From a candidate division WWE3 bacterium (GTDB taxonomy: Bacteria; Patescibacteriota; WWE3; JAPLWK01), in the NCBI GenBank assembly GCA_026396615.1, contig JAPLWK010000010.1, forward strand, positions 48,348 through 112,347: a DNA stretch of 64,000 nt, in the 5' to 3' direction. The notes beneath the pieces were generated by a model, which saw only the letters and a program-made list of their open reading frames with translations, did no database searches and was not told the DNA's origin. This document shows, in pieces, positions 3,016-46,807 of this stretch (within the stretch, counting starts at the first letter, position 1; every line of letters starts with the position of its first letter). The translations under genes were made by a program, and so were the position numbers.

Positions 3016-4513
3016 AAAACAGGAACTATTTTTAACGCTCATTGTCTTCGTGATCGCCGTCGCCATTGGCTTTTATCTTCGCTACGTGGCGGCAAGTACA
3101 CTGCCAATGATCAATGACGAAGGTTCTTACCTCTTCGATGCTTACCTTTTAGGTCAAGGTCATCTCCCCTTCCTGACATCCTTCTCGCGAGCGCCAGTCT
3201 TTATGATCCCACTGGCTTTATGGCTAAAGATTTTCGGCGTCAGTATTCTAAGCGGTCGTCTTTTTGCTGTGTTAGTAAGTTTGGGGTCTAGCGTAGTTTT
3301 ATATTTCTTAGGCAAAGAGTTAAAAGGTAAAGCTTTAGGAGTTGTGGCTTTTGTAATTTTTGCCACGATCTCGCCGGTTGCCATTCATGGAAGTTACGTG
3401 CTTACGGAAAATTTAGAAATATTTTTAGGACTACTGGGATCACTATTTTTAATTTACTCTCTTCGAACGCGGCCGTGGTTCCTATCGATTGCCTCTGGTG
3501 TTTGTTTTGGTTTAGCAATAGCGACTAGAGAAACGGCGGCGGTGTACCCATTATTTCTATGTATAGCAATCCTCGTTTTAAGATTTAGTAAACAAACGCT
3601 ACTGCGTTTAGCGCTTTGTGGGTTAGCCACCTTCGGAGTTTGGGCGGTAATGTGGGGTGGGATTGCCTCACAAGTGGGACTAGGCCATGTCGTAAAAAAT
3701 TTTCAAGCGATTTTAAAGATGCATAGTACTGGGGTTAAAGTTTCAACTGGCTTTGTAATTCGCGAGAAGCTGGGCGAAATCTGGTATCTAAAAATTGATT
3801 ATTTGATTTTTTACCTTTCTACTATTGCTTTTGCGATTTTGGCGGTCACTAAGAAGTGGTGGCGTAATAAGCAGATTTGGTTTCTACTAGCTATTGCTGG
3901 TGGTCCAATTCTATTCTACGGCGTTTATTACCAACGCATCCAGCCGGAATATTTCGCGAGCTTTATGCCTGGTTTTACTTTGATGATGGCGTATGTGGTT
4001 GTGGCTATTTATGAATGGCTAAAGACCCGGTCAGCATCTGTAGTAACATCGGTTGGCATCGCCGGCGTCATTATTTTCGGGATTACGAATCTACTTACTT
4101 TTACCTATCAACTTAAAAATAACCGCACTGGAACGTTTTATTTGCAGCCGATGGCAAATGTTGTCGCTTGGTTTCAAGTTAATACCCAGCCGACGGATGA
4201 GATTTTTACCGCGGCCGTCGGGATTCCTATGTTTAGCGGTCGCCACTTGGCACTAAATATTTCCCGGCCGGTAATCTATGGTTACCCGCACATTAAATCG
4301 GATATTAAATATGCCTTGTTCCCCACTCCACAGGCGATTATGGATTATTTAACGGTGAATCAAACTAAGTATTACATTGTGGAAAAAGCAACCAGAGATA
4401 GTTTTTACAACGGGCATTCAGAATTAAAGCAGTTTCTAGAAAGTAACTTTAAGCACTTAAAGACTTTTCCTAATCCTACTAATCCGATTGAAGTTTGGAT
4501 TCGGAACCCCTAA
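2999..4513 (+). CDS. ArnT/PMT-like (GT39/GT83-type) membrane glycosyltransferase-like protein
   Basis: Polytopic. DE motif in the first extracytoplasmic loop (PMINDEGSYLFDAY), typical of polyprenyl-phosphate-sugar-dependent GT-C enzymes. Confidence 0.55.
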   Translation: MKSLSKKQELFLTLIVFVIAVAIGFYLRYVAASTLPMINDEGSYLFDAYLLGQGHLPFLTSFSRAPVFMIPLALWLKIFGVSILSGRLFAVLVSLGSSVVLYFLGKELKGKALGVVAFVIFATISPVAIHGSYVLTENLEIFLGLLGSLFLIYSLRTRPWFLSIASGVCFGLAIATRETAAVYPLFLCIAILVLRFSKQTLLRLALCGLATFGVWAVMWGGIASQVGLGHVVKNFQAILKMHSTGVKVSTGFVIREKLGEIWYLKIDYLIFYLSTIAFAILAVTKKWWRNKQIWFLLAIAGGPILFYGVYYQRIQPEYFASFMPGFTLMMAYVVVAIYEWLKTRSASVVTSVGIAGVIIFGITNLLTFTYQLKNNRTGTFYLQPMANVVAWFQVNTQPTDEIFTAAVGIPMFSGRHLALNISRPVIYGYPHIKSDIKYALFPTPQAIMDYLTVNQTKYYIVEKATRDSFYNGHSELKQFLESNFKHLKTFPNPTNPIEVWIRNP

Positions 4514-34715: not shown

Positions 34716-36920
34716 ATGACTAGAGTTATTAGCATTAAAAATTTAGTAAGGAAGTTTTTAGCTTTGTTACCTTTTGGTATTTTGCTAACTTTCGGAGTGG
34801 TAATTTTTAAGGTTTCCACAAGGCTTCTTTTTTATAAATACGCCACATTCCAAACAAGTAAATTTGATCTAGGTATAATGGCCCAAACAGTTTGGAACAC
34901 CGCGCATGGTCGGTTTTTTGAATTTACCGATCATTTTGGGACAAACATGTCTCAAGCCGCCACTCACACCGATTATTTAATGGTAATCTTCGCACCTCTT
35001 TTTTGGATTTGGAACGATCCTCGAGTACTTCTAGTAGCTCAAGCACTATTATTAACATCTTCCGTTATTCCCATATATCTTCTGATTAAAATAAAGACAA
35101 AATCTAATTGGCTTGGATTAATTTGGGGAATTATCTTTTTGGTTTACCCGGCTGTCGCCTTTTTACTTCTGTCCGACTTTCACAGCGTTACCTTAGTGAT
35201 TCCATTATTCATTTGGGCCTTTTATTTTTTAGAAAAGAATTGGCTGATACCGTTTTTGATTGTTATTGGTCTTGCTTTGTTTGGCAAGGAAGAAATATCA
35301 TTAATCGTTATATTTTTTGGGCTTTACATTGCCTTTTTTCGTCATAGAAAACATTTAGGACTGGCGGTAATTACTTGCGGAATCTTGTGGGCCATCGTTA
35401 CTTTTGGTTTAATTATTCCTTCGTATGGCGGAATTCGTGAAAAGAGCTTCACTAGCTTTACAAACTACGCGTTGAGCGATCAATCTGAAATGTTTCGCAC
35501 CGGTAACTCACAAAATTTCTTCTTAAATCGTTACGATCAGTTCGGCGATTCATATACGAATATTGCCTGGAATATCATTTCTAATCCAAAAAATACGCTT
35601 AGCGTTTTAATATCTTCTGAAAATAGAGACTATTTATTTAAAGTATTTGGTCCCCTAATTTTTATTCCAGCATTAAATTTACCAATTATTTTAATTACTT
35701 TGCCTGAGTTTGCCATTAACCTGCTTAGTAACAACTCTGCCATGAAAGGAATTAAACTGCAGTATATTTCATCAATTATTCCATTTTTATTTGTATCCTC
35801 TATTTTTTTCATAGCTTATCTAAAAAAGAGAGTACCTGGTAAGTTCTCATTGGTCTCTGTTTATTCCATCTCGCTTGTAGTTTTGGTAGCCTCTCTGTGG
35901 GCTTCTAGTAGGTTTAATAGTCCTTTATGGCCTTATTTAGAACATGGCGGGCCACTAATAAAGCTGGTTAGCTTCGTGAATAATTATTTTGATCACAATA
36001 ACGGTTTAGCCAACACATCAGCCATTGAGTCTACAGATGAAAGCAATTTGAATATATCTCAAACTTCAGGGTTACCTGGAGGTGCAGGCACTTCGGATAA
36101 TGCTAATTTGGTAGTAGTAAAAATAAAGACTAGTATTGGTAATTCCTATGAAGGCTTAGGTTTTAGTAATCCTAAGGATAGTGACACGGCGGAATATACG
36201 ATAAAACAAATTCCGGAAAAGGCCTCTGTTTCGGCGCCTAATTTCTTGGGAGCTCAATTATCGCTAAGACCTTCCTTAGCCCTCTTTCCAGCTAATTATA
36301 AAGATGCTGATGATGTAGTGGTAGACTTGGCTTCTGATCAAGTTTTACATTCGGTTGATAATTTTAACATTACCCCTCTAATACCAAAGTTTGTAAGTGA
36401 TCTTCTAAGTAATAATTCTTATCAAATTAAATACTTTGGTAACAGCTTAATTTTGTTTGAAAAGTCTTCATCTAATAATAATTTTAAAAAAGGCCTTGAT
36501 TTTAATATAGAAGTTTTAGACACCGGAAGTTATTTAAAAGGATCGGAGATCAGTTACAACTCTGGATTGTCTTTACAGGACCCGTTATTTCCAGATCAAC
36601 TCCTCATAAATTCTGATAATAAAATCACGCAAGTTTGGGCGATTAACCGGTATTTTAGCAATAAGCCGCTTATAATTACGACTAGTTTAGTCAATAAAGA
36701 GTCTCGAAAGGTTTTTCAACTGGTTAATTTAGCCAGTTATTCCCTAAATAAGACCGATACTTGGGATGCTGAGCATGTTTACAAAGAAACTCTAAATTTT
36801 AAAATTCCGAGTTTTGTGGCGCCTGGAAATTACGACTTAGTGGTTGGAATTAGTGATTTTGATAATAAAAACATAATTGAAGCCCGTTATATTAAAGAAG
36901 TTGTAGTAGTTACTCCTTAA
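34716..36920 (+). CDS. DUF2079-like polytopic membrane protein with a large Asn/Ser-rich C-terminal extracytoplasmic domain
   Basis: N-terminal motif FDLGIMAQTVWNTAHGRFFEF resembles the DUF2079 DLG..Q..W signature. 10+ TM spans are followed by about 330 aa of soluble domain. Confidence 0.4.
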   Translation: MTRVISIKNLVRKFLALLPFGILLTFGVVIFKVSTRLLFYKYATFQTSKFDLGIMAQTVWNTAHGRFFEFTDHFGTNMSQAATHTDYLMVIFAPLFWIWNDPRVLLVAQALLLTSSVIPIYLLIKIKTKSNWLGLIWGIIFLVYPAVAFLLLSDFHSVTLVIPLFIWAFYFLEKNWLIPFLIVIGLALFGKEEISLIVIFFGLYIAFFRHRKHLGLAVITCGILWAIVTFGLIIPSYGGIREKSFTSFTNYALSDQSEMFRTGNSQNFFLNRYDQFGDSYTNIAWNIISNPKNTLSVLISSENRDYLFKVFGPLIFIPALNLPIILITLPEFAINLLSNNSAMKGIKLQYISSIIPFLFVSSIFFIAYLKKRVPGKFSLVSVYSISLVVLVASLWASSRFNSPLWPYLEHGGPLIKLVSFVNNYFDHNNGLANTSAIESTDESNLNISQTSGLPGGAGTSDNANLVVVKIKTSIGNSYEGLGFSNPKDSDTAEYTIKQIPEKASVSAPNFLGAQLSLRPSLALFPANYKDADDVVVDLASDQVLHSVDNFNITPLIPKFVSDLLSNNSYQIKYFGNSLILFEKSSSNNNFKKGLDFNIEVLDTGSYLKGSEISYNSGLSLQDPLFPDQLLINSDNKITQVWAINRYFSNKPLIITTSLVNKESRKVFQLVNLASYSLNKTDTWDAEHVYKETLNFKIPSFVAPGNYDLVVGISDFDNKNIIEARYIKEVVVVTP

Positions 36921-36973
36921 CCGTTAGAAGCAGACTAGTATTTCATGATAGACTATAGCTTAGTTGTACTCCT

Positions 36974-38488
36974 TTGGAACTTTTAAATATGGTCTATTTT
37001 CTTATTTTCTTAGCCACACTTTTTCCTCGAGTTTATAAAATAGGTTTTGATTTATTCAACACTGATGCCTTCTTTTGGAAAGAGAATACCTATAATTTCA
37101 TTGGTTTATTTGCTGATCACAGGTTTGCCGACATGGCCATCACCCACCACCCTGGCGTAACACTCATGTGGCTGGGAGGAATCGGGATGAAGATTTTTCG
37201 GGGCTTGTACTTTGTTGTCAAACATGTGCCGGCTCCAAATACTCAAGCCGTCGTTTTGTGGACAAACTTCTCCCAGAATTTACCGATCGCGCTTGTTTGC
37301 ACTGGGGCCGTCGCCGTCTCTTACTATTTAATCAAGCGGCTCTTTAATAATCAGCGTTTAGCTTTGGTTACGTCACTTCTGCTGGCGACTGAGCCGTGGT
37401 TGGTGGCTCATAGCCGAGTTTACAATACTGACGCTTTGATGACGTCTTTTATGTTTTTGTCGGTCTTAACTTTGTGGTTGGCTTTGTTGGAAACTAAATA
37501 CATTAAATGGGCGGTACTTAGTGGCGTCTTTGCTGGTCTCGCTTTGTTGACCAAAAGTATCTCGTTATTTTTAATTCCGTTTTTACTGTTAAGTGTTGGG
37601 GCATTTGTAATCTTTAAGAAGTTGTCAATTAAGAAGGCCATGACCATCGTGTCGACCGTTGTTGCAGCATGCGTGGCAACGTTTTTAGTCGTCTGGCCGG
37701 CGATGTGGACGAGTCCTGTGTCGACATTAAAGCTTTACTGGAACGGGATCTTCTTAGAAGGGGATACTCGGCTTAATTTACATAACATGTTTGGGCATCC
37801 AACCATGAACCCAGGGCCGATTTTTTACCCATTAGCTTTTCTATTAAGATTTACTCCAGAATTAATTGCCGCTTTTGCTATTGGCTTGATACTCTTGATA
37901 AAGAGGATTAATAGGAGAGAAGGAGACAAAGATGAAACCAGTTTGTTTTTATTACTATCTTTAGGATTTATAGTTTTCTATATGTTAGAAATATCGCTGG
38001 CAACTAAAAAATTGGATCGGTATTTGCTGCCGGTTGTTCCCTTCGTCGCCTTAATTGCGAGTTACGCTTTTGTGCAGCTAAAAAAGAAAATATTATTAAT
38101 TGTTTTAGGGGTAATATTAGCAATAAGGGTAATTGTTTTGGGTATATATCAACCGGACTATTTGGCTTATTATAACCCACTGCTTGGCGGTCCCACCGCT
38201 GGCTATAACTTTGATGGTGAATGGTGGGGAGAGGGGTATCACTTGGTTGGAAGTTGGATTAATGAGAAGTTAGAAGTTAGAGCGGTAGCGGCTTACGATA
38301 ATCGCCAACTGCGCCCTTTTGTTAAAGATAATATTGCAGTTTATGATGCTGGCGATAAAAAATTGGATGCTAATAAGGTTGATTTATGGGTATTAAAATA
38401 CAAAGATGGTGGTCGACAAGGTTTTCAGATTATAGATACTGTTAGCGTGGCTGGTTATCCGATGTGGGGAATTTACAAAAAGATTTAA
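36974..38488 (+). CDS. Polytopic membrane protein, GT-C (GT39-like) candidate
   Basis: Multi-TM with a first-loop HHPGVTLMWLGG motif and a YNPLLGG C-terminal motif shared with 7329 and 26814 (YNLASGG / YNPLIGG). Confidence 0.45.
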   Translation: MELLNMVYFLIFLATLFPRVYKIGFDLFNTDAFFWKENTYNFIGLFADHRFADMAITHHPGVTLMWLGGIGMKIFRGLYFVVKHVPAPNTQAVVLWTNFSQNLPIALVCTGAVAVSYYLIKRLFNNQRLALVTSLLLATEPWLVAHSRVYNTDALMTSFMFLSVLTLWLALLETKYIKWAVLSGVFAGLALLTKSISLFLIPFLLLSVGAFVIFKKLSIKKAMTIVSTVVAACVATFLVVWPAMWTSPVSTLKLYWNGIFLEGDTRLNLHNMFGHPTMNPGPIFYPLAFLLRFTPELIAAFAIGLILLIKRINRREGDKDETSLFLLLSLGFIVFYMLEISLATKKLDRYLLPVVPFVALIASYAFVQLKKKILLIVLGVILAIRVIVLGIYQPDYLAYYNPLLGGPTAGYNFDGEWWGEGYHLVGSWINEKLEVRAVAAYDNRQLRPFVKDNIAVYDAGDKKLDANKVDLWVLKYKDGGRQGFQIIDTVSVAGYPMWGIYKKI

Positions 38489-38491
38489 TAT

Positions 38492-39697
38492 ATGCGAATT
38501 ATCTGTTTATCAAATCAGCTCTGGGACTGGCCGCTGTGGACTAATAAGCGGCAAGTTATGTCTAGGCTTGCGAACCTGGGGCATGAAGTCATCTTCGTGG
38601 ATCCACCGATTAGGCTGCAGAAATTAGCGAAACAAATTAGTGAAGGAAAGTGGTCAGGCCAACGTCTTTTGACCGGGTCAAGAATTGTGAAAACAGAGTT
38701 TGGGGAAAACAAAGAAGTCTTAAATTACACTCCGATAACATTGTCATATTCTGAAGATCCAAATTTGGTTAGTTTTAATGTGGATCGGATAAATCGGTTG
38801 CGGGTTCAGCAGGTTGAACCCCTACGGTTGGGTCTAGATATGACTCAAGAAAAGACGGTGCTGTGGGTTTATAACGTTTCGATGCGCGAGTATGTTGATA
38901 AAATACCACATGATTACTTAATTTATGATTGCGTTGATAATTATCCGGCGATGGCGAATTATCAGCGGTTAGGATTGTCGGAAGCCGTCGCTAGTTGGGA
39001 AATTGAACTTGCCAAAAAGTCAGACCTGGTTTTTACATCAGCGCCCGGTCTTAAAAAGCGATTAAGCCAAATTAATCCAAAAACGTTCTTTATTCCTAAC
39101 GCTGGCAATTATGAATTATTCTCGTCCGCCAGTCGAGAGCGCACGCCAATGCCGCCAAGCCTTGAAAATATACCCAGGCCGATTATTGGGTTTACGGGAA
39201 CGATTGATGATTACAAGGTCGATGTTGAATTAGTAATCAAAGCGGCGAAGGCATTACCTAATTACTCGTTCGTTATTATCGGTCCGCATGGTGAGGCTGA
39301 TAAATCACCAGATCTTAAAAAGTTGACAGTCCTACCAAACATTCACCTACTACCACAAGTAAAATACGACGATCAAGTGCCTTTCTACACTTATTTTGAT
39401 GCTTTTATTATCCCGTACAGACTTAATGACTATACTATTGAGGGCTGCTTCCCCATAAAATTCTGTGATGCGCTGTCGTCCGGTCTTCCGGTTGTCGTCA
39501 CCAATTTGCCGGCTTACGCTGATTTTAAAGATGTTTGCTATATTGGAGACTCTGATGAAGAGTTTGTTAAAATGATAAAGCAGGCAGTTGACGAAAATTC
39601 CGAAGAGCGTTGTGAGTCGCGTCGCGCGATTGCCAAGCAGAATTCTTGGGATGGAAAAGTGGCCCGTCAGTTAAATATTATCAGTGAGAATCTATGA
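38492..39697 (+). CDS. Glycosyltransferase family 1-like (GT4-type)
   Basis: IICLSNQLWDWPLW...GHEVIFVDP N-terminal Rossmann-like region and a C-terminal IIGFTGTIDDYKVD...FVIIGP donor-binding-like region. Confidence 0.55.
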   Translation: MRIICLSNQLWDWPLWTNKRQVMSRLANLGHEVIFVDPPIRLQKLAKQISEGKWSGQRLLTGSRIVKTEFGENKEVLNYTPITLSYSEDPNLVSFNVDRINRLRVQQVEPLRLGLDMTQEKTVLWVYNVSMREYVDKIPHDYLIYDCVDNYPAMANYQRLGLSEAVASWEIELAKKSDLVFTSAPGLKKRLSQINPKTFFIPNAGNYELFSSASRERTPMPPSLENIPRPIIGFTGTIDDYKVDVELVIKAAKALPNYSFVIIGPHGEADKSPDLKKLTVLPNIHLLPQVKYDDQVPFYTYFDAFIIPYRLNDYTIEGCFPIKFCDALSSGLPVVVTNLPAYADFKDVCYIGDSDEEFVKMIKQAVDENSEERCESRRAIAKQNSWDGKVARQLNIISENL

Positions 39698-40425
39698 GGC
39701 GACTTGAAATTGACATGCCGGTTTATAACGAAGAAGTAGATTTGCCGAAGAATATTCCGGTTTTATATGATTTTTGCGTTGCTAATTTACAGAATTATGA
39801 TTGGTCAATTAAGATTGTTGACAATGCTTCCAAAGATAACACTTGGAATGTCGTTTCTGAGTTGTCACTAAAGTATCTCGGGAAAGTAAGCGGTCTTAAA
39901 CTTGATCGCAAGGGTCGAGGTTGGGCGTTGCGACAAGCGTGGACGACGTCTAAGGCTGACTATGTATCCTACATGGACATTGACTTGTCTTCAGACCTCG
40001 CGACTTTTCCGAAACTGCTCCGTCTTTTGGATGACGGGTACGATATGGCTGTCGGGTCCCGAAACATGCGAGAGTCCGAAGTCATCGGTCGAACGCTGCT
40101 GCGAGAAATCATGTCACGGACTTACATTACCCTCGTTAAATTAATGCATGGCACGCATGTTTCCGATACCCAGTGTGGTTTTAAGGCCTTACGCCGCAGT
40201 GCTTTCATAAAAGTTGAGCCGGTGATTGAAAATAATTTGTGGTTTTTTGATTCGGAAATGGTGATTTTGTTTGAAAAAGTGAGCTTTAAAGTCAAAGATG
40301 TTCCGATCAAATGGGTTGATGACCGTCATACTACGGTAAAAATTGCCAAGGACTCTTACGAGGAATTTAGCGGTCTTACGCGTCTTCTTAGAACTAAACC
40401 TTGGAAGGCTTTAACAACTTCATAA
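39694..40425 (+). CDS. Glycosyltransferase family 2
   Basis: MPVYNEE and IVDNASKDNT motifs, plus a DxD-equivalent YMDIDLSSD. Confidence 0.7.
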   Translation: MRRLEIDMPVYNEEVDLPKNIPVLYDFCVANLQNYDWSIKIVDNASKDNTWNVVSELSLKYLGKVSGLKLDRKGRGWALRQAWTTSKADYVSYMDIDLSSDLATFPKLLRLLDDGYDMAVGSRNMRESEVIGRTLLREIMSRTYITLVKLMHGTHVSDTQCGFKALRRSAFIKVEPVIENNLWFFDSEMVILFEKVSFKVKDVPIKWVDDRHTTVKIAKDSYEEFSGLTRLLRTKPWKALTTS

Positions 40426-40493
40426 ACACGCTATTGACCTTAGGTCTCATCGGATTAAAACTAATACACAGATTCAACTGCCTCAAATATAAA

Positions 40494-40510
40494 TTTCACT
40501 GCCCGTGAAA
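40494..40510. promoter_or_regulatory. 17-bp perfect palindrome TTTCAC-N5-GTGAAA, about 50 nt upstream of nrdD
   Basis: Read directly: TTTCACTGCCCGTGAAA. Candidate operator. Confidence 0.2.
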
Positions 40511-40560
40511 AAGTATTTTTTGTTGCGCTCTGACTTTTTAGTCGGTGCCTTATTTATTGT

Positions 40561-42669
40561 ATGCAAAAAACTTTAAAATCAACGATTAAAAAAGTTAAAA
40601 AACGTAATGGGGAATTGGTGTCTTTTAGTGTCACTAAAATAGAGAAAGCAATTAGTGCCGCTCTTAAATCTTCGGGAGCCCAAGATAAAAAGTTAGCGAC
40701 TGACTTGTCTAAAAAAGTCCTAAAGGACTTAGAACAACGTTTTAATTCCACGATCACTCCGGAAGTGGAGCAAATCCAAGATATTATTGAAAAAGTGCTT
40801 TTGGCTGAGGGTTTAGAGCGAGCCCACCAAGCTTTCACTTTATACCGAGAATTACACCGAAAAACTCGAGATATTACAAGTTTAGTTGATTCCGATGAGC
40901 TGATCCGCAAATATTTAAATCAACAGGACTGGCGGGTTAAGGAAAACGCCAATATGACCTATTCATTGCAAGGCCTTAACAACCACGTGGCCAGTATTAT
41001 TTCTTCTAACTTTTGGCTTAATCAGATCTACACTCGCGAAATTCGCAAAGCTCACGTCCAGGGCGATATTCATATACACGATTTGGCGCTACTCTCGCCT
41101 TATTGCACCGGCTGGGATCTCAAGGATTTTTTGATAAAGGGTTTTGGTGGGGTGCCTGGGAAAGTCAGCAGCAAACCGCCAAAACATCTGTCAACGGCCC
41201 TAGGGCAACTGGTCAACTTTTTCTATACGATTCAGGGAGAGGTGGCCGGGGCGGTGGCAATTTCTAACTTTGACACATATCTGGCGCCGTTTATTCGCTA
41301 CGATAAATTATCGTACAAGGAGTTAAAGCAGAATATACAGGAATTTGTTTTTAACATGAACGTGCCCACTCGCGTTGGCTTTCAAACGCCATTTACCAAC
41401 GTCTCCCTCGACTTAAAACCAACGAAAACGGTTGGTGAAGAAGCCGTCATAATCGGCGGCGAAGTGGTTGACGCGAAATACAAGGATTTTCAGTTAGAAA
41501 TGGATTTGTTTAATCGGGCCTTCGCCGAAGTCATGATGGAAGGTGATAGCCAGGGCCGGGTCTTCACTTTTCCAATTCCCACTTACTCAATAACTAAAGA
41601 TTTTGATTGGGAAAATAAAAATCTGGAACCGGTGTGGGAAATGACTCGCAAATATGGACTGCCATACTTTTCTAATTTTGTAAACTCCGATATGGATCCA
41701 GACGACGCTCGTAGCATGTGCTGTCGACTAAGATTAGATAATCGAACTTTGCGTCGCCGAGGAGGTATGTTTTCCGCTAATCCCCTAACCGGAGCAATTG
41801 GCGTCGTCACTATTAATCTCCCTCGCATCGGATATCTTGCTCATAAAGAAAAAGGGGAGGGAGAAGCCGCGAAAAAGAAGTTCTTCAGTTTACTCGGCCA
41901 ACTTTTAGACATCTCTAAAGACTCACTGGTCATAAAACGAGCGGAAGTTGAGGATTTAACCGTGCGGGGTTTGTACCCATATTGTCGTTACTACCTGGAA
42001 GACATCCACCTGCGAAACGGCGTTTATTGGCGAAATCATTTTAATACGATTGGGATTAATGGGATGAATGAGGCGCTCATTAACCTTTTTGGGAAGACGA
42101 TTTCCGATCCTGAAGGCAAAGAGTTTGCTCTGGAAGTCATGGATTATATTCGGGAGAAGATTTTAATTTATCAAAAAGAGACTGGGGAAATGTTTAACCT
42201 GGAGGCAACCCCGGCCGAAAGTACCGCTTACCGCTTTGCTAAAATAGATAAAGCTCGCTTTGGGGATATTATCGTGGCTAACGAAGAGGCTTACCAAAAG
42301 CAAAAGGCGGCGCCTTTTTATACTAACTCGACCCATTTACCGGTTGACTACACCACAGATATTTTCGAGGCTCTTGATCATCAAGATGATCTACAGGCGA
42401 AATATAACGGGGGAACAGTGATTCACGGATTTATGGGGGAGAGTTTGCCAGACACCAGGTCGGTTAAAGCACTTGTCAAAAAGATCAGTAGCAATTACAA
42501 ACTGCCATATTTCTCAATCACCCCCACTTTTTCGATATGCCCGAAGCACGGCTACTTAAAAGGGTCTCACGAATTTTGTCCACTGTGTGATGAAGAAATT
42601 GGTTATGGAAATGTAGAGGAGGTGACTCCTGTTTATGCCAAAAAAGTCGGTCGATCCAAAAAATCTTGA
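40561..42669 (+). CDS. nrdD: Anaerobic ribonucleoside-triphosphate reductase (class III), body; glycyl-radical tail is out of frame
   Basis: N-terminal ATP-cone, a central MCCRLRLD / GAIGVVTINLPRIGY region, and a C-terminal Zn ribbon CPKHG...CPLCDEE. An NrdG gene follows. Confidence 0.85.
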   Translation: MQKTLKSTIKKVKKRNGELVSFSVTKIEKAISAALKSSGAQDKKLATDLSKKVLKDLEQRFNSTITPEVEQIQDIIEKVLLAEGLERAHQAFTLYRELHRKTRDITSLVDSDELIRKYLNQQDWRVKENANMTYSLQGLNNHVASIISSNFWLNQIYTREIRKAHVQGDIHIHDLALLSPYCTGWDLKDFLIKGFGGVPGKVSSKPPKHLSTALGQLVNFFYTIQGEVAGAVAISNFDTYLAPFIRYDKLSYKELKQNIQEFVFNMNVPTRVGFQTPFTNVSLDLKPTKTVGEEAVIIGGEVVDAKYKDFQLEMDLFNRAFAEVMMEGDSQGRVFTFPIPTYSITKDFDWENKNLEPVWEMTRKYGLPYFSNFVNSDMDPDDARSMCCRLRLDNRTLRRRGGMFSANPLTGAIGVVTINLPRIGYLAHKEKGEGEAAKKKFFSLLGQLLDISKDSLVIKRAEVEDLTVRGLYPYCRYYLEDIHLRNGVYWRNHFNTIGINGMNEALINLFGKTISDPEGKEFALEVMDYIREKILIYQKETGEMFNLEATPAESTAYRFAKIDKARFGDIIVANEEAYQKQKAAPFYTNSTHLPVDYTTDIFEALDHQDDLQAKYNGGTVIHGFMGESLPDTRSVKALVKKISSNYKLPYFSITPTFSICPKHGYLKGSHEFCPLCDEEIGYGNVEEVTPVYAKKVGRSKKS

Positions 42670-42802
42670 AGAGCAAAGAACTCGTTGTGAAGTCTACTCC
42701 AGAATCGTGGGGTACCTGCGCCCGGTCGTTCAGTGGAACGATGGTAAAGCCGCAGAATTTTCGATGCGCCAGACCTACACAAATGGTCTAAAAGAGTCAT
42801 GA
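42635..42802 (+). CDS. nrdD: NrdD C-terminal glycyl-radical peptide in the +1 frame relative to the nrdD body (MPKKSVDPKNLEEQRTRCEVYSRIVGYLRPVVQWNDGKAAEFSMRQTYTNGLKES)
   Basis: RIVGYL + NDGK matches the class III RNR glycyl radical motif (RxxGYLG...N.GK). AGGAGG lies 12 nt upstream of this ATG. The frames cross at CCAAAAAAG. The TGA overlaps the nrdG ATG. Confidence 0.6.
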   Translation: MPKKSVDPKNLEEQRTRCEVYSRIVGYLRPVVQWNDGKAAEFSMRQTYTNGLKES

Positions 42803-43515
42803 CACTGGGGGGCCTTCAAAAAACCACTCTGGTTGACTTCCCAGGACGCGTCGCTTGTACAGTATTTACGGTCGGCTGCAATTTTCGCTGTCCCTTTTGC
42901 CACAATCGAGATTTAGTGACAAGTTCCAAGTTCCAGGAATCCAAGATCCAAGTTATTTCTCAAGAAACCTTTTTCGAATTCCTTAAAGGCCGGATCAAAA
43001 TTTTAGATGGGGTTTGTATCACCGGTGGTGAGCCGACGTTGCAGCCGGATCTAGAAGATTTTTGTCGAAAAATTAAGTCGCTAGGTCTCCTCGTTAAGCT
43101 TGATACCAATGGCGGTCACCCAGAAATCGTTAAAAAGCTTTTAGATCAGAAACTACTTGATTTTATCGCGATGGATTTAAAGGGACCATGGGAAGATTAT
43201 TCGAAAATTAGTAAATTTGAGCAGGTTGAATTGGTCAAGCAGACGATTCTTTTGACTGTCAAAAGTAATTTAGAATATGAATTTCGGACAACTGTTGTGC
43301 CGGATCTCCACTCCGAAAATTCGTTAATAAAACTCGCTTCAGATTTAGTAAAACTGACGGGTTGCAGTGATCATGATTACTTCCTACAGAACTTTAGAGG
43401 GGTTAGTTGTTTGGACAGTTCTTACAACGATCGACCTGGGTTTTCGTCAACCCAGCTTCAGAGTCTGCGAGACGCGGTTGCAAAGATTCTGCCAAAAACT
43501 AAAACTCGAGAATAA
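42799..43515 (+). CDS. nrdG: Anaerobic ribonucleotide reductase activating protein (radical SAM)
   Basis: N-terminal CNFRCPFCHN (CxxxCxxC), 238 aa, GGEPTL motif, directly downstream of nrdD. Confidence 0.8.
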   Translation: MTLGGLQKTTLVDFPGRVACTVFTVGCNFRCPFCHNRDLVTSSKFQESKIQVISQETFFEFLKGRIKILDGVCITGGEPTLQPDLEDFCRKIKSLGLLVKLDTNGGHPEIVKKLLDQKLLDFIAMDLKGPWEDYSKISKFEQVELVKQTILLTVKSNLEYEFRTTVVPDLHSENSLIKLASDLVKLTGCSDHDYFLQNFRGVSCLDSSYNDRPGFSSTQLQSLRDAVAKILPKTKTRE

Positions 43516-43542
43516 TTGCTATAAATTGTATACTAAACACTT

Positions 43543-43980
43543 ATGAATACTAAAAAGTTATTTATGTTGGGCTATGGAGTCATTGCTATTGTCTCCTTGG
43601 TGGTAGTTGGATTCCTGGTTTATCGGGCTTACTCGTTTGATAAAACTTTAAAAAATAGTGACGCTGTTGCCACAACGCTTCCTGTAACTGCTAATTTAAG
43701 AATTGATTTTGGTGAAAATAAATTCGCGACATACTTAGCAATTCAGGTCAACAGCCCAGCAACAGTTCTTAAATTAATTCAAGCCCCTGCCACCAAAGAT
43801 TTAAATTTGGTAATAGAAGTCAAGCCTCTAGGAACATTAATAAAAAGCATTGCCGGTAAAACGGCCAGCAACGGCTATTTTTGGTTGACCTACGTTAATG
43901 GCATTGTTACGCCTTCTGGGGTCGACAGTATTGCGGTCGCCAGCGGCGATTTAATAGAAATTAAGTATAATAAGCTCTAA
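43543..43980 (+). CDS. Small membrane-anchored or secreted protein, DUF4430-like
   Basis: N-terminal TM/signal (LFMLGYGVIAIVSLVVVGFLV) and a C-terminal GYFWLTYVNG...SGDLIEIKY region reminiscent of DUF4430. Confidence 0.3.
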   Translation: MNTKKLFMLGYGVIAIVSLVVVGFLVYRAYSFDKTLKNSDAVATTLPVTANLRIDFGENKFATYLAIQVNSPATVLKLIQAPATKDLNLVIEVKPLGTLIKSIAGKTASNGYFWLTYVNGIVTPSGVDSIAVASGDLIEIKYNKL

Positions 43981-43984
43981 ACCT

Positions 43985-46807
43985 ATGTTTAAAGAGCTTT
44001 CTACAAACGAAAAAATCTCAGATCGCGACGCTCGTTTAATCCAATTTTGGCAGGAAAATAAAATATTTGAGAAATCTGTTTCGGAGCGTTCGGCCGATAA
44101 TTCCTACGTCTTTTATGATGGTCCGCCTTTCATTTCGGGACTACCGCACTACGGTCACTTACTCGGTTCAATAGCTAAAGACATTATTCCCCGATATTGG
44201 ACTATGAAAGGTAAAAGAGTTGAACGTGTTTGGGGTTGGGATGCTCACGGCTTAACGGTAGAAAATAAGGTTCAAAAAGAGCAGGGAATTAAGAATCGCC
44301 GCGATATTGAAAAGTTTGGGGTTAAAAAGTTTGTTGACGCTTGTTATGAATACACTTCCCGCATTTCTTCAGAGTGGGGTTGGTATATTGATAGGATCGG
44401 CCGCTGGGTTGACATGGAGCACGCCTATAAAACGACTGATCAGACTTACATGGAAAGTACTATCTGGGCCTTTAAGCAGTTGTATGATAAAGGCCTAATT
44501 TACGAAGGCTTACGGACGTCATTATTTTGCCCAACTTGTGGAACGCCTGTCTCTAACTTTGAAGTGGGGCTTGATGACTCCTATAAAGACGTAGAAGATC
44601 CGGCGGTGACTATCGAATTCCCAATTACTTCCGAAGGACCCTTTAAGGGATCTGTCATTTTGGCTTGGACGACTACACCGTGGACATTGCCTTCTAATGA
44701 AGCCTTGGTCATTGATCCGGAAGCTATCTACGTCGAATTTGAGGGTCAGACTGAGGGTAGCAGGTTTATTGTCGCCAAACCACGACTCGAATCTGTAAAT
44801 GCTGGTGATACTTATAAAGTGATAAGAGAGTTTAAAGGCCGGGATCTTTTGGGTCTTACTTACGAACCACCGTTCCGTTTCTTTAAAACTTCAGATAACG
44901 CCTATAAAGTCTACGAATTTTCGGGGATGGTGAACATGGAAGATGGCACTGGAATCGTCCACAGCGCTCCGGGCTTTGGAATAATTGATACCGAAATGGG
45001 CCGTCACTTTGGGTTGTCTTTGATGCAGACTATCAATGACGATGGTAAATTTGCGGCTGGTGATAATGGGGCGAATCCTTACGAAGGTCTTTTCTATAAA
45101 GCGGCGGATAAGCTAATCATGGAGGATCTTGCTAAACCAGAACTCAACCGTCTTTTCAAGAGTGCGCGAATTACCCACCGTTTTCCTTATCACGATCGTT
45201 GTGACACTTTGCTTATCCAACGAGCTCAGCATTCCTGGTTTGTTAATGTTTCCGGACTAAAAGAGGCAATGCTTAAAAATAATCAGGATATCAACTGGGT
45301 TCCGGAGCATATTAAAGCCGGCCGTTTTGCATTGGGAATTGAGCAGGCGCCAGATTGGTGCATTTCACGAAATCGCTTTTGGGGCACCCCGATGCCAGTG
45401 TGGGAGTCTGCGGATGGCGATCGGATTGTTGTCTCATCTATTAACGAAATCGAAGAGTTGTCCGGTCAAAAGGTAGTTGATCTGCACCGTCCAGCTATTG
45501 ACGACATTGTGCTTCACAAAGACGGCAAAGATTATAAACGTCGCTCGGAAGTCCTGGATTCTTGGTTTGAAGCCGGTTCCATGCCGTACGCCCAGTTCCA
45601 CTATCCCTTTGAGAATAAAAAGAAGTTCGAAAAGAATTATCCCGGCGATTATATCGTTGAATATATTGCTCAAACTCGAGCTTGGTTCTTCTTCATGCAC
45701 ACTCTCTCGACGGCCCTGTTTGGCAGTAATTCTTTTAAAAACGCGATTTGCACCGGGGTGATGGCTGGCAGTGACGGTCGCAAGATGAGCAAGTCGTACA
45801 ATAATTACGCTGACCCTAAAGGAGTTATAGAAAAATACGGTGGTGACGCCCTTCGTCTCTATTTAATGAACTCGCCGCTTATGATTGGCGAGAACGCTAA
45901 TTTTGATGAACAAGGCCTTAAAACAAAGGCAAATAATGTCATCAACCCGCTTATCAACTCTCTCAAATACTTTGTGACCTACGCCAATCTAAATAATTGG
46001 AGTCCGACGTCGCACGTTTCGTCTGAGGACGTTTTAGATCAGTGGATTACGGCTCGTCTTAATCAAACAACTAGCGTAGTGGCTAGTAATATTGAGTCTT
46101 ACACTGTGCCAGCAGCCGTTGAAGCCGTCGAAACCTTTGTTGATGATCTGTCACGTTGGTATGTTCGCCGTTCCCGCAGTCGAATTTCTAGTGGTGACAA
46201 TGCGGCTCTTTCGACACTTTACAATGTACTCTTAACTTTTTCTAAAGTCGCAGCGCCGATAATTCCATTTGTATCCGAAGAGATTTATTTAGCACTTCGC
46301 GAGAATAATTCTGAGGAATCGGTTCATCTTTGTAGTTTTCCAATATGTATTGAAAGTGACGAGTCAGAGATTATAAATAAAATGCGAGATACTCGGGAAA
46401 TTGTTTCGAAAGCCCTGTCACTGCGGACAGAAAAGAAGATAAATGTTCGTCAGCCATTACGTTTACTCGAAGTAAAAACTAAATACAACAATTATTATAA
46501 AGAAATAATTATGGAAGAGGTAAATGTGAAAGATGTGACATCGTCCCAAATCGACGAGGACATTAAACTCGACATTGTAATCACGCCTGAATTAAAGGTT
46601 GAAGGTGATGCTCGAGCTTTAACTCGTGAGCTGCAAGATTTGCGGAAAGAGGCGGGGTTAACACCAGCTGACACCGTCGTCGCTGATTTCGCGGATACCC
46701 TAGAGAATAAGCTAGCAGTCGAGAAATTTGGTGAAGAGATTAAAAATAAGGTGCGGGCAGTGGCTTTAACGCCTGGCGCCTTGACAAAAGTCGTCAAGAC
46801 AACGTAG
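43985..46807 (+). CDS. ileS: Isoleucyl-tRNA synthetase, eukaryote-like type 2
   Basis: FYDGPPFISGLPHYGHLL (HIGH region of type-2 IleRS), WGWDAHGL, KMSKS, 940 aa. Confidence 0.9.
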   Translation: MFKELSTNEKISDRDARLIQFWQENKIFEKSVSERSADNSYVFYDGPPFISGLPHYGHLLGSIAKDIIPRYWTMKGKRVERVWGWDAHGLTVENKVQKEQGIKNRRDIEKFGVKKFVDACYEYTSRISSEWGWYIDRIGRWVDMEHAYKTTDQTYMESTIWAFKQLYDKGLIYEGLRTSLFCPTCGTPVSNFEVGLDDSYKDVEDPAVTIEFPITSEGPFKGSVILAWTTTPWTLPSNEALVIDPEAIYVEFEGQTEGSRFIVAKPRLESVNAGDTYKVIREFKGRDLLGLTYEPPFRFFKTSDNAYKVYEFSGMVNMEDGTGIVHSAPGFGIIDTEMGRHFGLSLMQTINDDGKFAAGDNGANPYEGLFYKAADKLIMEDLAKPELNRLFKSARITHRFPYHDRCDTLLIQRAQHSWFVNVSGLKEAMLKNNQDINWVPEHIKAGRFALGIEQAPDWCISRNRFWGTPMPVWESADGDRIVVSSINEIEELSGQKVVDLHRPAIDDIVLHKDGKDYKRRSEVLDSWFEAGSMPYAQFHYPFENKKKFEKNYPGDYIVEYIAQTRAWFFFMHTLSTALFGSNSFKNAICTGVMAGSDGRKMSKSYNNYADPKGVIEKYGGDALRLYLMNSPLMIGENANFDEQGLKTKANNVINPLINSLKYFVTYANLNNWSPTSHVSSEDVLDQWITARLNQTTSVVASNIESYTVPAAVEAVETFVDDLSRWYVRRSRSRISSGDNAALSTLYNVLLTFSKVAAPIIPFVSEEIYLALRENNSEESVHLCSFPICIESDESEIINKMRDTREIVSKALSLRTEKKINVRQPLRLLEVKTKYNNYYKEIIMEEVNVKDVTSSQIDEDIKLDIVITPELKVEGDARALTRELQDLRKEAGLTPADTVVADFADTLENKLAVEKFGEEIKNKVRAVALTPGALTKVVKTT

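What the first reader, a model, noticed from the sequence alone, without database searches (positions are those of the whole stretch)
42600..42802. nrdD glycyl-radical domain encoded in the +1 frame behind an A6 tract, with its own SD and ATG
The 702-aa NrdD body ends right after its Zn ribbon (CPKHG...CPLCDEE ... KKS*). The universally required glycyl-radical motif (RIVGYLRPV...NDGK) is encoded in the +1 frame, from ATG 42635 to the TGA that overlaps the nrdG start. The frames cross at GCC AAA AAA GTC. A +1 slip at the A6 run would give a seamless full-length protein. At the same time AGGAGG lies 12 nt upstream of the out-of-frame ATG. The possibilities are: (i) a homopolymer sequencing error, (ii) programmed +1 frameshifting, or (iii) a genuinely split RNR in which the radical domain is a separate 55-aa subunit, analogous to the spare-part glycyl radical protein GrcA/YfiD.
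Basis: partly seen in the sequence, partly recalled or inferred. Interest (0 to 1): 0.7.

Follow-up and report, generated by a model that had tools for sequence, protein, structure and literature searches.

The report
Two-piece anaerobic ribonucleotide reductase gene
The anaerobic ribonucleotide reductase here is naturally encoded in two pieces, a 702-residue catalytic body and a separate 55-residue mini-protein carrying the essential radical glycine, and this arrangement recurs in many uncultured bacteria and archaea but I found no description of it in print.

Summary
The NrdD body (40561-42669, 702 aa) stops just after its zinc ribbon. [quoted passage not shown]

It is not a sequencing error:
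- Two other assemblies are identical.
- A relative only 83% identical in DNA keeps the same two ORFs without any indel, with 11 synonymous against 3 non-synonymous codon changes in the peptide frame.

It is not programmed frameshifting. In 19 split loci from other species the GRD ORF lies in all three relative frames. It overlaps the body by 4-29 nt or follows a spacer of up to 187 nt, nearly always with its own start codon and often a Shine-Dalgarno-like motif.

Stand-alone GRD mini-proteins are abundant. All of the best 150 cluster representatives in a 1.84-billion-protein search are 45-96 aa. Of the 60 closest bodies, 49 lack a GRD.

The best reading is an obligate two-subunit class III RNR whose radical-bearing hairpin docks in trans and is activated by NrdG. 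The A6 tract is incidental. I found no published description; a 2026 review says spare-part proteins are known only for formate lyases.

The parts
40561..42669 (+). nrdD body: ATP-cone, catalytic barrel and zinc ribbon, with no glycyl-radical domain (702 aa)
   Evidence: Pfam ATP-cone and NRDD positions 1-529 of 562; NCBIfam NF006126 at 981 bits. Against L083 there are 275 synonymous and 38 non-synonymous codon differences.
41713..41730 (+). Finger-loop motif SMCCRL (residues 385-390), the expected site of the catalytic thiyl-radical cysteine
   Evidence: Located. Invariant in the alignment of 36 relatives. The role is inferred from class III RNR literature (PMC9669993).
42538..42588 (+). Zinc ribbon CPKH-x9-CPLC (residues 660-676), the last conserved structural element of the body
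   Evidence: Aligns to T. maritima NrdD 4COI residues about 594-610; coordinates.
42589..42606 (+). DEEIGY motif, the hallmark C-terminal motif of split bodies
   Evidence: 47 of the 49 nearest GRD-less bodies end C-x2-C-D-x-E-I-G-[YWF] plus 1-30 unconserved residues. It is also present in distant split loci.
42617..42622 (+). Shine-Dalgarno AGGAGG for the GRD mini-gene, lying inside the 3' end of the body ORF
   Evidence: Only 12 AGGAGG occur on the + strand of the window. Gene 62510 has the same AGGAGGTGA with about 12 nt spacing. The 33-nt block around it is 100% conserved in the 83%-identical relative L083.
42635..42802 (+). GRD mini-gene (55 aa): variable Lys-rich leader, then RTRCEVYSRIVG26YLRPVVQWNDGKAAEF
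   Evidence: Pfam NRDD positions 532-562 of 562, E 1.3e-9. Profile aligns to 4COI residues 612-645. 11 synonymous and 3 non-synonymous changes in this frame, against 1:13 and 0:13 in the other frames. 70 stand-alone homologues.
42635..42669 (+). 35-nt overlap of the body and GRD ORFs (GRD in the +1 frame), containing the A6 tract at 42640-42645
   Evidence: A6 tracts are common in the window.
42710..42712 (+). Codon of Gly26, the predicted glycyl-radical residue
   Evidence: RIVGY motif located. G26 is invariant in 31 stand-alone peptides.
42799..43515 (+). nrdG activase (238 aa, radical SAM, CNFRCPFC at 42877-42900); its ATG overlaps the GRD stop codon (ATGA)
   Evidence: TIGR02495 NrdG2 at 193.9 bits against a cutoff of 131; Pfam Radical_SAM; coordinates.

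Best explanation
[quoted passage not shown] Three overlapping co-oriented genes form one operon: nrdD body, a 55-aa glycyl-radical-domain (GRD) mini-protein, and nrdG.

The body is translated to its own stop just after the zinc ribbon. The mini-protein is initiated independently at ATG 42635 from an internal AGGAGG. Its stop overlaps the nrdG start, which couples GRD and activase synthesis.

By inference, the mini-protein supplies in trans the beta-hairpin carrying Gly26 and the following helix. In single-chain NrdDs that element is the C-terminal 35-40 residues, inserted into the barrel next to the finger-loop cysteines. NrdG then abstracts the Gly26 hydrogen to make the radical, and catalysis proceeds as in ordinary NrdD.

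What is shown: the gene architecture, its conservation and selection, its recurrence in many lineages, and homology of each piece to the corresponding part of solved NrdDs. What is inferred: independent initiation, non-covalent assembly, activation of the free or docked peptide, and any benefit such as cheap replacement of an oxygen-cleaved radical piece.
For: 1. The architecture is real. Two other assemblies are identical. L083, 83% identical in DNA, has the same 702-aa and 55-aa ORFs with no indel.

2. Both ORFs are under purifying selection in their own frames. The body shows 275 synonymous against 38 non-synonymous changes. The peptide shows 11:3, against 1:13 and 0:13 in the other frames.

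3. The split is widespread.
- 70 of 70 word-index hits to ORF2 are proteins of 40-90 aa.
- An exhaustive HMM search gave 4955 hits, and the best 150 representatives are all 45-96 aa. The 60 of these I read begin with M, V or L and, with one exception (P0115), carry no zinc-ribbon motif.
- 19 of 80 GTDB loci are split, always with the body immediately upstream.
- 49 of the 60 nearest bodies lack a GRD.

4. Junctions differ between loci. All three relative frames occur, with 4-nt ATGA overlaps, 20-35 nt overlaps, or spacers of 14-187 nt. Nearly every locus has its own start codon and many have an SD-like motif. This fits separate translation and nothing else.

5. The break point is structurally sensible. 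The body ends at the residues that align to T. maritima NrdD 4COI about 594-610. The peptide aligns to 612-645. In an AF2 model of a fused-with-linker relative, the linker is a coil with pLDDT below 50 at residues 709-712, and the GRD forms a hairpin with Gly at its tip.

6. A near-isogenic fused/split pair differs by one clean 41-nt indel carrying the stop, SD and ATG. Split and fused forms also intermix among 70-80%-identical relatives. Both architectures therefore persist in close relatives.

7. Stand-alone zinc-ribbon+GRD ORFs lie next to full-length NrdDs in L063 and L073. They differ from the neighbouring GRD mostly by synonymous changes. This is independent support that NrdD GRDs can act in trans.
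Against: - There is no experimental evidence of any kind: no protein, EPR or activity data.
- Only 64 kb of the genome is visible, so another complete RNR elsewhere cannot be excluded.
- The SD-to-ATG spacing of 12 nt is long, although another gene in the window shares it.
- In this locus and in L083 a +1 slip on the A-run would formally join the frames, so a minor fused product cannot be excluded.
- No complex model could be computed. The AF2 model of the fused relative is only of medium quality (mean pLDDT 71).
- The two identical Logan contigs may come from the same samples as the window, so they are weak as independent evidence. L083 is the independent one.
Confidence: 0.8

Rival explanations
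1. Homopolymer sequencing or assembly error: the real gene is one ORF and the A6 tract is miscounted.
For: The frames cross at an A6 run. Two identical Logan contigs could derive from the same data as the window.
Against: - L083, from another run and 83% identical in DNA, has the same A6 tract, the same two ORFs and no indel over 2242 nt.
- 19 other species have split loci whose junctions mostly owe nothing to a homopolymer, including spacers of 65-187 nt.
- 49 of the 60 nearest bodies end without a GRD.
- Removing one A would give a 38-residue linker, against the usual 11.
Confidence: 0.01
2. Programmed +1 ribosomal frameshifting (or transcriptional slippage) on GCC AAA AAA G makes a single full-length NrdD. 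The ATG and SD would be incidental or make only a side product.
For: The tRNA-Lys could re-pair from AAA to AAG in the +1 frame. The 33-nt block containing the SD, ATG and A6 is perfectly conserved between the window and L083 despite 17% overall divergence.
Against: - The closest other species (L014, L033, L085) use an ATGA overlap in the +2 frame. L084 has a 40-nt spacer. Other loci use frame 0 or long spacers with stops in every frame.
- No stimulatory structure is detectable: fold z-score +0.76 and no Rfam hit.
- A6 runs are common in the window.
- The conserved block is equally explained by an SD, spacer, start codon and dual coding.
Confidence: 0.04
3. Decaying gene: nrdD was inactivated by a frameshift and both ORFs are remnants.
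For: Reduced genomes accumulate pseudogenes. Annotators call some stand-alone peptides 'hypothetical protein'.
Against: - Purifying selection is strong and frame-specific on the body (275:38) and on the peptide (11:3).
- The architecture is conserved across a deep clade whose bodies are only 55-60% identical.
- The catalytic motifs are intact.
- nrdG is retained and translationally coupled to the peptide.
Confidence: 0.02
4. Pure spare part of the GrcA type: the 55-aa protein only rescues an oxygen-cleaved, full-length NrdD encoded elsewhere, and the adjacent body is not its normal partner.
For: GrcA/YfiD sets the precedent (PMC13450708). L063 and L073 show real spare-part-like ORFs beside complete NrdDs.
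Against: - In all 22 split loci examined, the mini-gene lies immediately downstream of a body that itself lacks a GRD.
- The spare-part-like ORFs of L063 and L073 carry their own zinc ribbon, and this peptide does not.
- No second nrdD lies within 4.5 kb upstream or downstream of the locus on the + strand. The rest of the window was not scanned.
Confidence: 0.05
5. Protein trans-splicing by a split intein joins the two products after translation.
For: Inteins are frequent in related NrdD bodies (1000-1094-aa relatives carrying Pfam intein or homing-endonuclease domains).
Against: - Body tails after EIGY are 1-30 unconserved residues, and some bodies end at ...EIGYK.
- Peptide leaders are 2-30 variable residues.
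- There is no intein domain hit on ORF1's tail or on ORF2.
- These segments are far too short for split-intein halves.
Confidence: 0.005

Closest known systems
Single-chain class III RNR NrdD with activase NrdG (phage T4, E. coli, Thermotoga maritima PDB 4COI/4U3E, Prevotella copri 8P23)
   Same: It has the same ATP-cone, catalytic barrel with finger-loop cysteines, C-terminal zinc ribbon and RxxGY glycyl-radical hairpin. An adjacent radical-SAM activase is present. All pieces are homologous.
   Different: The polypeptide is broken between the zinc ribbon and the GRD. The GRD is a separate 55-aa gene product. Split bodies carry an extra conserved D-x-E-I-G-Y C-terminal motif.
GrcA/YfiD, the autonomous glycyl-radical 'spare part' of pyruvate formate-lyase
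   Same: It is a small stand-alone protein consisting essentially of a GRD. It is presumably activated by the cognate activase and docks into a large subunit lacking a functional GRD.
   Different: GrcA supplements a PFL that has its own GRD and acts after oxygen cleavage, whereas this body never has a GRD, so the peptide is obligatory. GrcA belongs to the PFL-type Gly_radical family, while ORF2 matches only the NrdD C-terminus. GrcA is 127 aa and is not encoded inside the pfl operon (my own knowledge). The 2026 review states that spare parts are known only for formate lyases (PMC13450708).
Split class II RNR NrdJa/NrdJb (Pseudomonas aeruginosa; Crona et al. 2015, cited in PMC9669993)
   Same: An RNR catalytic chain is naturally divided into two consecutive genes. 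The C-terminal zinc-finger-containing part is on the second chain.
   Different: It is a different RNR class (B12-dependent) with a different break point. NrdJb is a folded multi-domain protein rather than a 55-aa radical-bearing hairpin, and no radical cofactor resides on the small piece.
Programmed +1 frameshift genes such as prfB (RF2)
   Same: Two overlapping ORFs with the downstream one in the +1 frame, and an SD-like element shortly upstream of the shift site.
   Different: There is no conserved shift site among homologues. Frame relations and spacing vary, and the downstream ORF has its own start codon in almost every locus.

Membership tests
Class III ribonucleotide reductase system (NrdD + NrdG) | NrdD catalytic domain with finger-loop cysteine(s) | tested here: met
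   Pfam NRDD positions 1-529 of 562, E 1.6e-177. NCBIfam NF006126 at 981 bits against a cutoff of 548. SMCCRL at residues 385-390.
Class III ribonucleotide reductase system (NrdD + NrdG) | C-terminal zinc ribbon preceding the GRD | tested here: met
   CPKH-x9-CPLC at residues 660-676 aligns with the 4COI zinc-ribbon region. Metal binding itself cannot be tested here.
Class III ribonucleotide reductase system (NrdD + NrdG) | Glycyl-radical motif RxxGY on the same polypeptide as the barrel | tested here: not met
   The motif RIVGY is present but on a separate 55-aa ORF in another frame. The system is class III, but the subunit composition departs from the family definition.
Class III ribonucleotide reductase system (NrdD + NrdG) | Adjacent radical-SAM activase with a CxxxCxxC cluster motif | tested here: met
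   TIGR02495 NrdG2 at 193.9 bits against a cutoff of 131. CNFRCPFC at residues 27-34.
Class III ribonucleotide reductase system (NrdD + NrdG) | Glycyl radical formation and NTP reduction | not testable with these tools
   This needs EPR and an activity assay with body, peptide, NrdG, SAM and a reductant.
GrcA/YfiD-type spare-part protein | Stand-alone small protein homologous to the GRD of a glycyl radical enzyme | tested here: met
   The 55-aa ORF2 matches NRDD profile positions 532-562. Its profile aligns to the 4COI GRD.
GrcA/YfiD-type spare-part protein | The partner enzyme has its own GRD, and the small protein is a backup | tested here: not met
   The adjacent body ends 26 residues after the zinc ribbon with no GRD.
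GrcA/YfiD-type spare-part protein | Membership of the PFL-type Gly_radical family | tested here: not met
   The only Pfam hit is PF13597 NRDD, with no Gly_radical hit at E<=0.01.
Programmed +1 ribosomal frameshift gene | Shift site and frame relation conserved among homologues, with the downstream ORF lacking independent initiation signals | tested here: not met
   Relative frames 0, +1 and +2, overlaps or spacers up to 187 nt, and own start codons (plus SD-like motifs in many) across 19 split loci.
Programmed +1 ribosomal frameshift gene | Stimulatory element or RNA structure at the site | tested here: inconclusive
   The fold z-score is +0.76 and there is no Rfam match. An upstream SD exists but is equally an initiation signal.
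Split-intein trans-spliced protein | Intein N- and C-fragments at the break | tested here: not met
   There are no intein domains. The tails and leaders are 1-30 unconserved residues.

The most novel reading that the evidence does not exclude
In many CPR bacteria, Bipolaricaulota and DPANN archaea, the class III RNR would use its glycyl radical as a dissociable, replaceable cartridge. A roughly 50-residue mini-protein would be radicalised by NrdG, possibly off the enzyme, then dock into a GRD-less catalytic body. After oxygen cleavage or radical loss it could be swapped out without resynthesis of the 80-kDa body. Together with the zinc-ribbon+GRD ORFs next to complete NrdDs (L063, L073), this would extend the spare-part principle from formate lyases to ribonucleotide reductases. 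It would also show that a glycyl radical enzyme can work with its cofactor-bearing element permanently in trans.
Probability: 0.3. Interest if true: 0.85.

Novelty: new variant of a known kind. Interest (0 to 1): 0.68.

Why it matters
Glycyl radical enzymes are defined as single chains whose C-terminal domain carries the radical. The only known exception in trans is GrcA, which rescues damaged pyruvate formate-lyase. A natural, conserved and widespread NrdD whose radical domain is always a separate 50-residue protein bears on several points:

- It shows that covalent linkage is dispensable for a GRE.
- It provides a minimal natural substrate for studying how activases recognise and radicalise GRDs.
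- It suggests a cheap repair route for oxygen damage in organisms with tiny genomes that often depend on this enzyme for dNTPs.
- It flags a systematic annotation problem. Bodies are called complete 'ribonucleoside triphosphate reductase' while the essential mini-gene is unnamed, labelled hypothetical or missed.
- Metabolic reconstructions and pseudogene callers may misjudge these loci.

Tried and rejected
- phmmer of ORF2 alone against PDB sequences found nothing. Only the profile of 31 peptides reached 4COI and 8P23.
- An Rfam scan of 40300-43700 at E<=1 gave no hit.
- RNA folding of 42590-42700 was no better than shuffles (z +0.76). It showed only a small GGAG-GUGA-CUCC hairpin over the SD.
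- An exact-sequence look-up of the 702-aa body found nothing on record.
- Eight literature searches (split nrdD; NrdD with split; separate GRD; two ORFs; autonomous glycyl radical with RNR; NrdD with CPR or Patescibacteria; small protein) found no description of a split class III RNR. Reading five papers gave the same result.
- Alternative genetic code 25 (UGA = Gly) was considered and rejected. Reading through the body's TGA in frame gives RAKNSL* and not the GRD (read directly from the sequence).
- A split intein was rejected on length and lack of domains.
A fused-with-linker relative (P0251) was modelled instead, at medium confidence.
- My first automatic fused/split classification mislabelled L054 and L056 as split, because the HSP began upstream of a stop. 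Both are fused.
Full report
**Observation**

The region reads as the first-stage reader described.

- ORF1 (40561-42669, 702 aa) has an ATP-cone and matches the Pfam NRDD model from position 1 to 529 of 562 (E 1.6e-177). It scores 981 bits on NCBIfam NF006126.
- ORF1 carries the finger-loop motif SMCCRL (residues 385-390) and a zinc ribbon CPKH-x9-CPLC (residues 660-676). It then runs DEEIGY plus 20 further residues to a TGA.
- The last 31 positions of the NRDD model, which hold the glycyl-radical motif, are matched by a 55-aa ORF in the +1 frame (42635-42802, E 1.3e-9): MPKKSVDPKNLEEQRTRCEVYSRIVGYLRPVVQWNDGKAAEF...
- AGGAGG lies at 42617-22, 12 nt before the ATG.
- The A6 tract is at 42640-45, and the two ORFs overlap by 35 nt.
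- The small ORF's TGA overlaps the ATG of nrdG (ATGA at 42799-42802). nrdG matches TIGR02495 at 194 bits and has the CNFRCPFC cluster motif.

**Not a sequencing error**

Two Logan assemblies (SRR20698641 and SRR20698644) are 100% identical to the window over 1602 and 1152 nt. They may be the window's own samples, so they count for little on their own.

L083 is the decisive case. It comes from a different run (SRR22388065) and is only 83% identical in DNA over 2242 nt, with no indel at all. It has the same 702-aa and 55-aa ORFs, the same overlap and the same A6 tract.

Codon differences are overwhelmingly synonymous in each ORF's own frame. The body shows 275 synonymous against 38 non-synonymous. 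The non-overlapping part of the peptide shows 11 against 3, compared with 1:13 and 0:13 in the other two frames. Both ORFs are therefore translated in the frames seen.

A6 runs are unremarkable in this 40% G+C window, with 57 in total and six inside nrdD.

**Not programmed frameshifting**

Searching with ORF2 returned 70 proteins, all 40-90 aa. They share RTRCEVYSRIVGYLRPVxQWNxGKxxEF behind variable leaders.

A scan of one genome per GTDB species with that profile gave 80 loci. I classified them by open frames and tblastn.

- About 56 are ordinary single-chain NrdDs. In 48 of these the last zinc cysteine is 11 residues from the radical glycine.
- 19 are split, always with the GRD-less body immediately upstream.
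- The split junctions differ in every respect. Relative frame is +1 in L005, L006, L012, L017, L021, L037, L048, L055 and L075, as in the window. It is +2 in L003, L011, L013, L014, L033, L068 and L076, and 0 in L004, L057 and L074.
- Some have ATGA overlaps (L011, L014, L033), and others have overlaps of 8-29 nt.
- Others have spacers of 14, 15, 20, 27, 65, 70, 144, 146 or 187 nt with stops in all frames.
- Nearly every mini-ORF has its own ATG, GTG or TTG, and many have a GGAGG-like motif upstream.

The window's closest other species (L014 at 76% and L033 at 73% body identity) use ATGA in the +2 frame. No single recoding mechanism can serve these layouts, whereas independent initiation serves all of them.

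Nothing structured follows the A-run (fold z +0.76; no Rfam hit).

AGGAGG is rare in this window, with 12 on the + strand. Another gene (62510) uses the same AGGAGGTGA with about 12 nt spacing. The 33-nt block containing the SD, spacer, ATG and A6 is perfectly conserved in L083 against a 17% divergent background.

**How common it is**

An exhaustive HMMER search of 1.84 billion cluster representatives with the peptide profile gave 4955 hits at E<=1e-3. All of the best 150 are 45-96 aa. Short targets are somewhat favoured in ranking, so this is a lower bound on diversity rather than a ratio.

The 60 of those I read start with M, V or L. With one exception (P0115, which has its own CKLC...CSSC ribbon), none carries a zinc-ribbon motif, so they are not fragments of long genes.

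Of the 60 proteins closest to the window's body (70-94% identity; named Candidatus Shapirobacteria, Beckwithbacteria or Patescibacteria where named), 49 end without a GRD. Of those 49, 47 end with C-x2-C-D-x-E-I-G-[YWF] followed by 1-30 unconserved residues. The other 11 are fused.

In a neighbour-joining tree of bodies, the window sits in an all-split Patescibacteria clade whose members are only 55-60% identical to it. A second split group holds Bipolaricaulota/Acetothermia and Micrarchaeota sequences, and further split archaeal loci branch near fused Bathyarchaeia. Deep branches of that tree are not reliable.

**Fused and split forms interconvert**

L086 (fused, P0265) and L033 (split, P0266) are about 92% identical around the junction. 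They differ by one clean 41-nt indel, ATTGGTTATTCAAGGAAGGGGGGTGGAAAATGAAAAAAAAG. It encodes IGYSRKGGGK-stop, an SD-like GGGGGTGG, and ATG-KKK.

A few fused proteins (P0251, P0264, P0273, L081) retain EIGY plus a long linker and look like re-fusions. That both forms persist among close relatives argues that both work.

**Where the break falls**

The body's end aligns to T. maritima NrdD (4COI) up to CPVCGK at residue 610. The peptide profile aligns to 4COI residues 612-645, KVDEYMRIVGYLVPVS.... The chain is therefore cut exactly between the last zinc ligand and the strand leading to the radical glycine.

I made an AF2 model of the fused-with-linker relative P0251, of medium quality (mean pLDDT 71). 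It shows:
- the zinc ribbon at residues 682-698;
- a short helix over DKEIGF;
- a coil at 703-718, with pLDDT below 50 at 709-712;
- a beta-hairpin at 719-724 and 727-730 with Gly726 at its tip;
- a helix at 736-744.

The natural break thus falls in a flexible surface linker.

**Mechanism proposed**

The architecture, selection, recurrence and homology are shown. The rest is inferred, as follows.

- The three genes are one operon.
- The mini-protein starts at its own SD and ATG while ribosomes finish the body 35 nt downstream.
- nrdG is translationally coupled to the mini-gene.
- The mini-protein docks its hairpin non-covalently into the barrel next to the SMCCRL loop.
- NrdG generates the Gly26 radical on the free or docked peptide.

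From my own knowledge, activases act on a GRD that has flipped out of the barrel, and PFL activase accepts short peptide substrates. Activation of a free 55-mer is therefore plausible.

A possible advantage concerns oxygen damage. Oxygen cleaves the chain at the radical glycine, and with a separate piece only 55 residues would be lost. This last point is speculation.

**Comparison with what is known**

The system is class III RNR in every component, but it departs from the family's single-chain definition.

It works like GrcA/YfiD with PFL but is not a member of that family. The partner has no GRD of its own, and ORF2 matches only the NrdD C-terminus.

The nearest precedent for a split RNR is class II NrdJa/NrdJb (PMC9669993).

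I found no description of a split class III RNR in eight full-text searches. [quoted passage not shown] No curated NCBIfam or Pfam family exists for the mini-protein, and NCBI records call examples 'hypothetical protein'. The literature library is incomplete, so prior mention elsewhere cannot be excluded.

**Side finding**

In L063 and L073 a complete, single-chain NrdD is followed within 7-52 nt by an 88-92-aa ORF. That ORF has its own zinc ribbon (CHDCG...CKAC or CLAC) and a GRD nearly identical in protein to its neighbour's. The two copies are about 91% identical in DNA in L073 and differ mostly by synonymous changes. This looks like a true spare-part arrangement for NrdD and supports in-trans function of NrdD GRDs.

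**Verdict**

Reader option (iii) is supported and options (i) and (ii) are rejected. The A6 tract is incidental.

The locus is one member of a large, apparently undescribed class of two-piece anaerobic ribonucleotide reductases. I rate it a new variant of a known kind, with interest 0.68.

Noticed in passing
L063:2330-2620 and L073:3648-3923: A full-length single-chain NrdD is immediately followed by an 88-92-aa ORF. The ORF has its own zinc ribbon and a GRD almost identical to the neighbour's, differing mostly by synonymous changes. This is a GrcA-like spare-part arrangement for class III RNR. P0115 (83 aa) is the same kind.
   Followed up: partly
L086:3440-3670 versus L033:2770-3030: This is a near-isogenic fused/split pair. 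They differ by a single 41-nt indel that carries IGY...stop, an SD-like motif and the ATG of the mini-gene.
   Followed up: yes
Relatives P0237, P0258, P0260, P0261, P0268, P0272, P0274, P0276; L027 and L076 bodies: Many related NrdD bodies are 838-1094 aa because of large insertions at two or three different sites. Some have Pfam intein or homing-endonuclease hits (PF14890, PF14528).
   Followed up: no
L004:3348-3500: The 144-nt spacer between body and mini-gene is flanked by a direct duplication of about 40 nt (GAAAACCTGGAAAACAAGCGAACGAAATGCGAAGTCTACAG). It looks like an insertion or duplication that created or widened the split.
   Followed up: no
L008:3060-3100: The nrdD of a long-read Chloroflexia MAG changes frame in mid-gene, with HSPs in two frames meeting near 3090. 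Unlike the split loci, this looks like an assembly error or a pseudogene.
   Followed up: no
L046:2316-3605: A GRD and zinc-ribbon match (NRDD profile 521-562) lies at the end of a 429-codon stop-free frame. No NrdD body is within 3.5 kb upstream. It may be an unlinked stand-alone GRD in a high-GC deltaproteobacterial MAG.
   Followed up: partly
window 42618-42629: The SD of the mini-gene can pair with the sequence just downstream (GGAG-GUGA-CUCC) in a small hairpin. The fold is not statistically significant. It could make initiation depend on ribosomes translating the body.
   Followed up: partly
L005, L006, L017, L021, L048, L075: The Bipolaricaulota/Acetothermia-type mini-proteins start with TTG or GTG. 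They have a conserved leader NYKEDxDGNLxLEDGxxIP and carry Ala instead of the otherwise near-invariant Cys before EVYSR.
   Followed up: no
P0071 and P0092: Two stand-alone GRD proteins contain an internal tandem duplication of the GRD motif. This may be real or an assembly artefact.
   Followed up: no
window 34716-40425 and 43543-46807: Upstream of nrdD lies a run of membrane and glycosylation genes: DUF2079, PMT-like, and GT1 and GT2 glycosyltransferases. Downstream lie a DUF4430 protein and IleRS. No nrdR is adjacent, unlike L084 and L085, where nrdR directly precedes nrdD.
   Followed up: no
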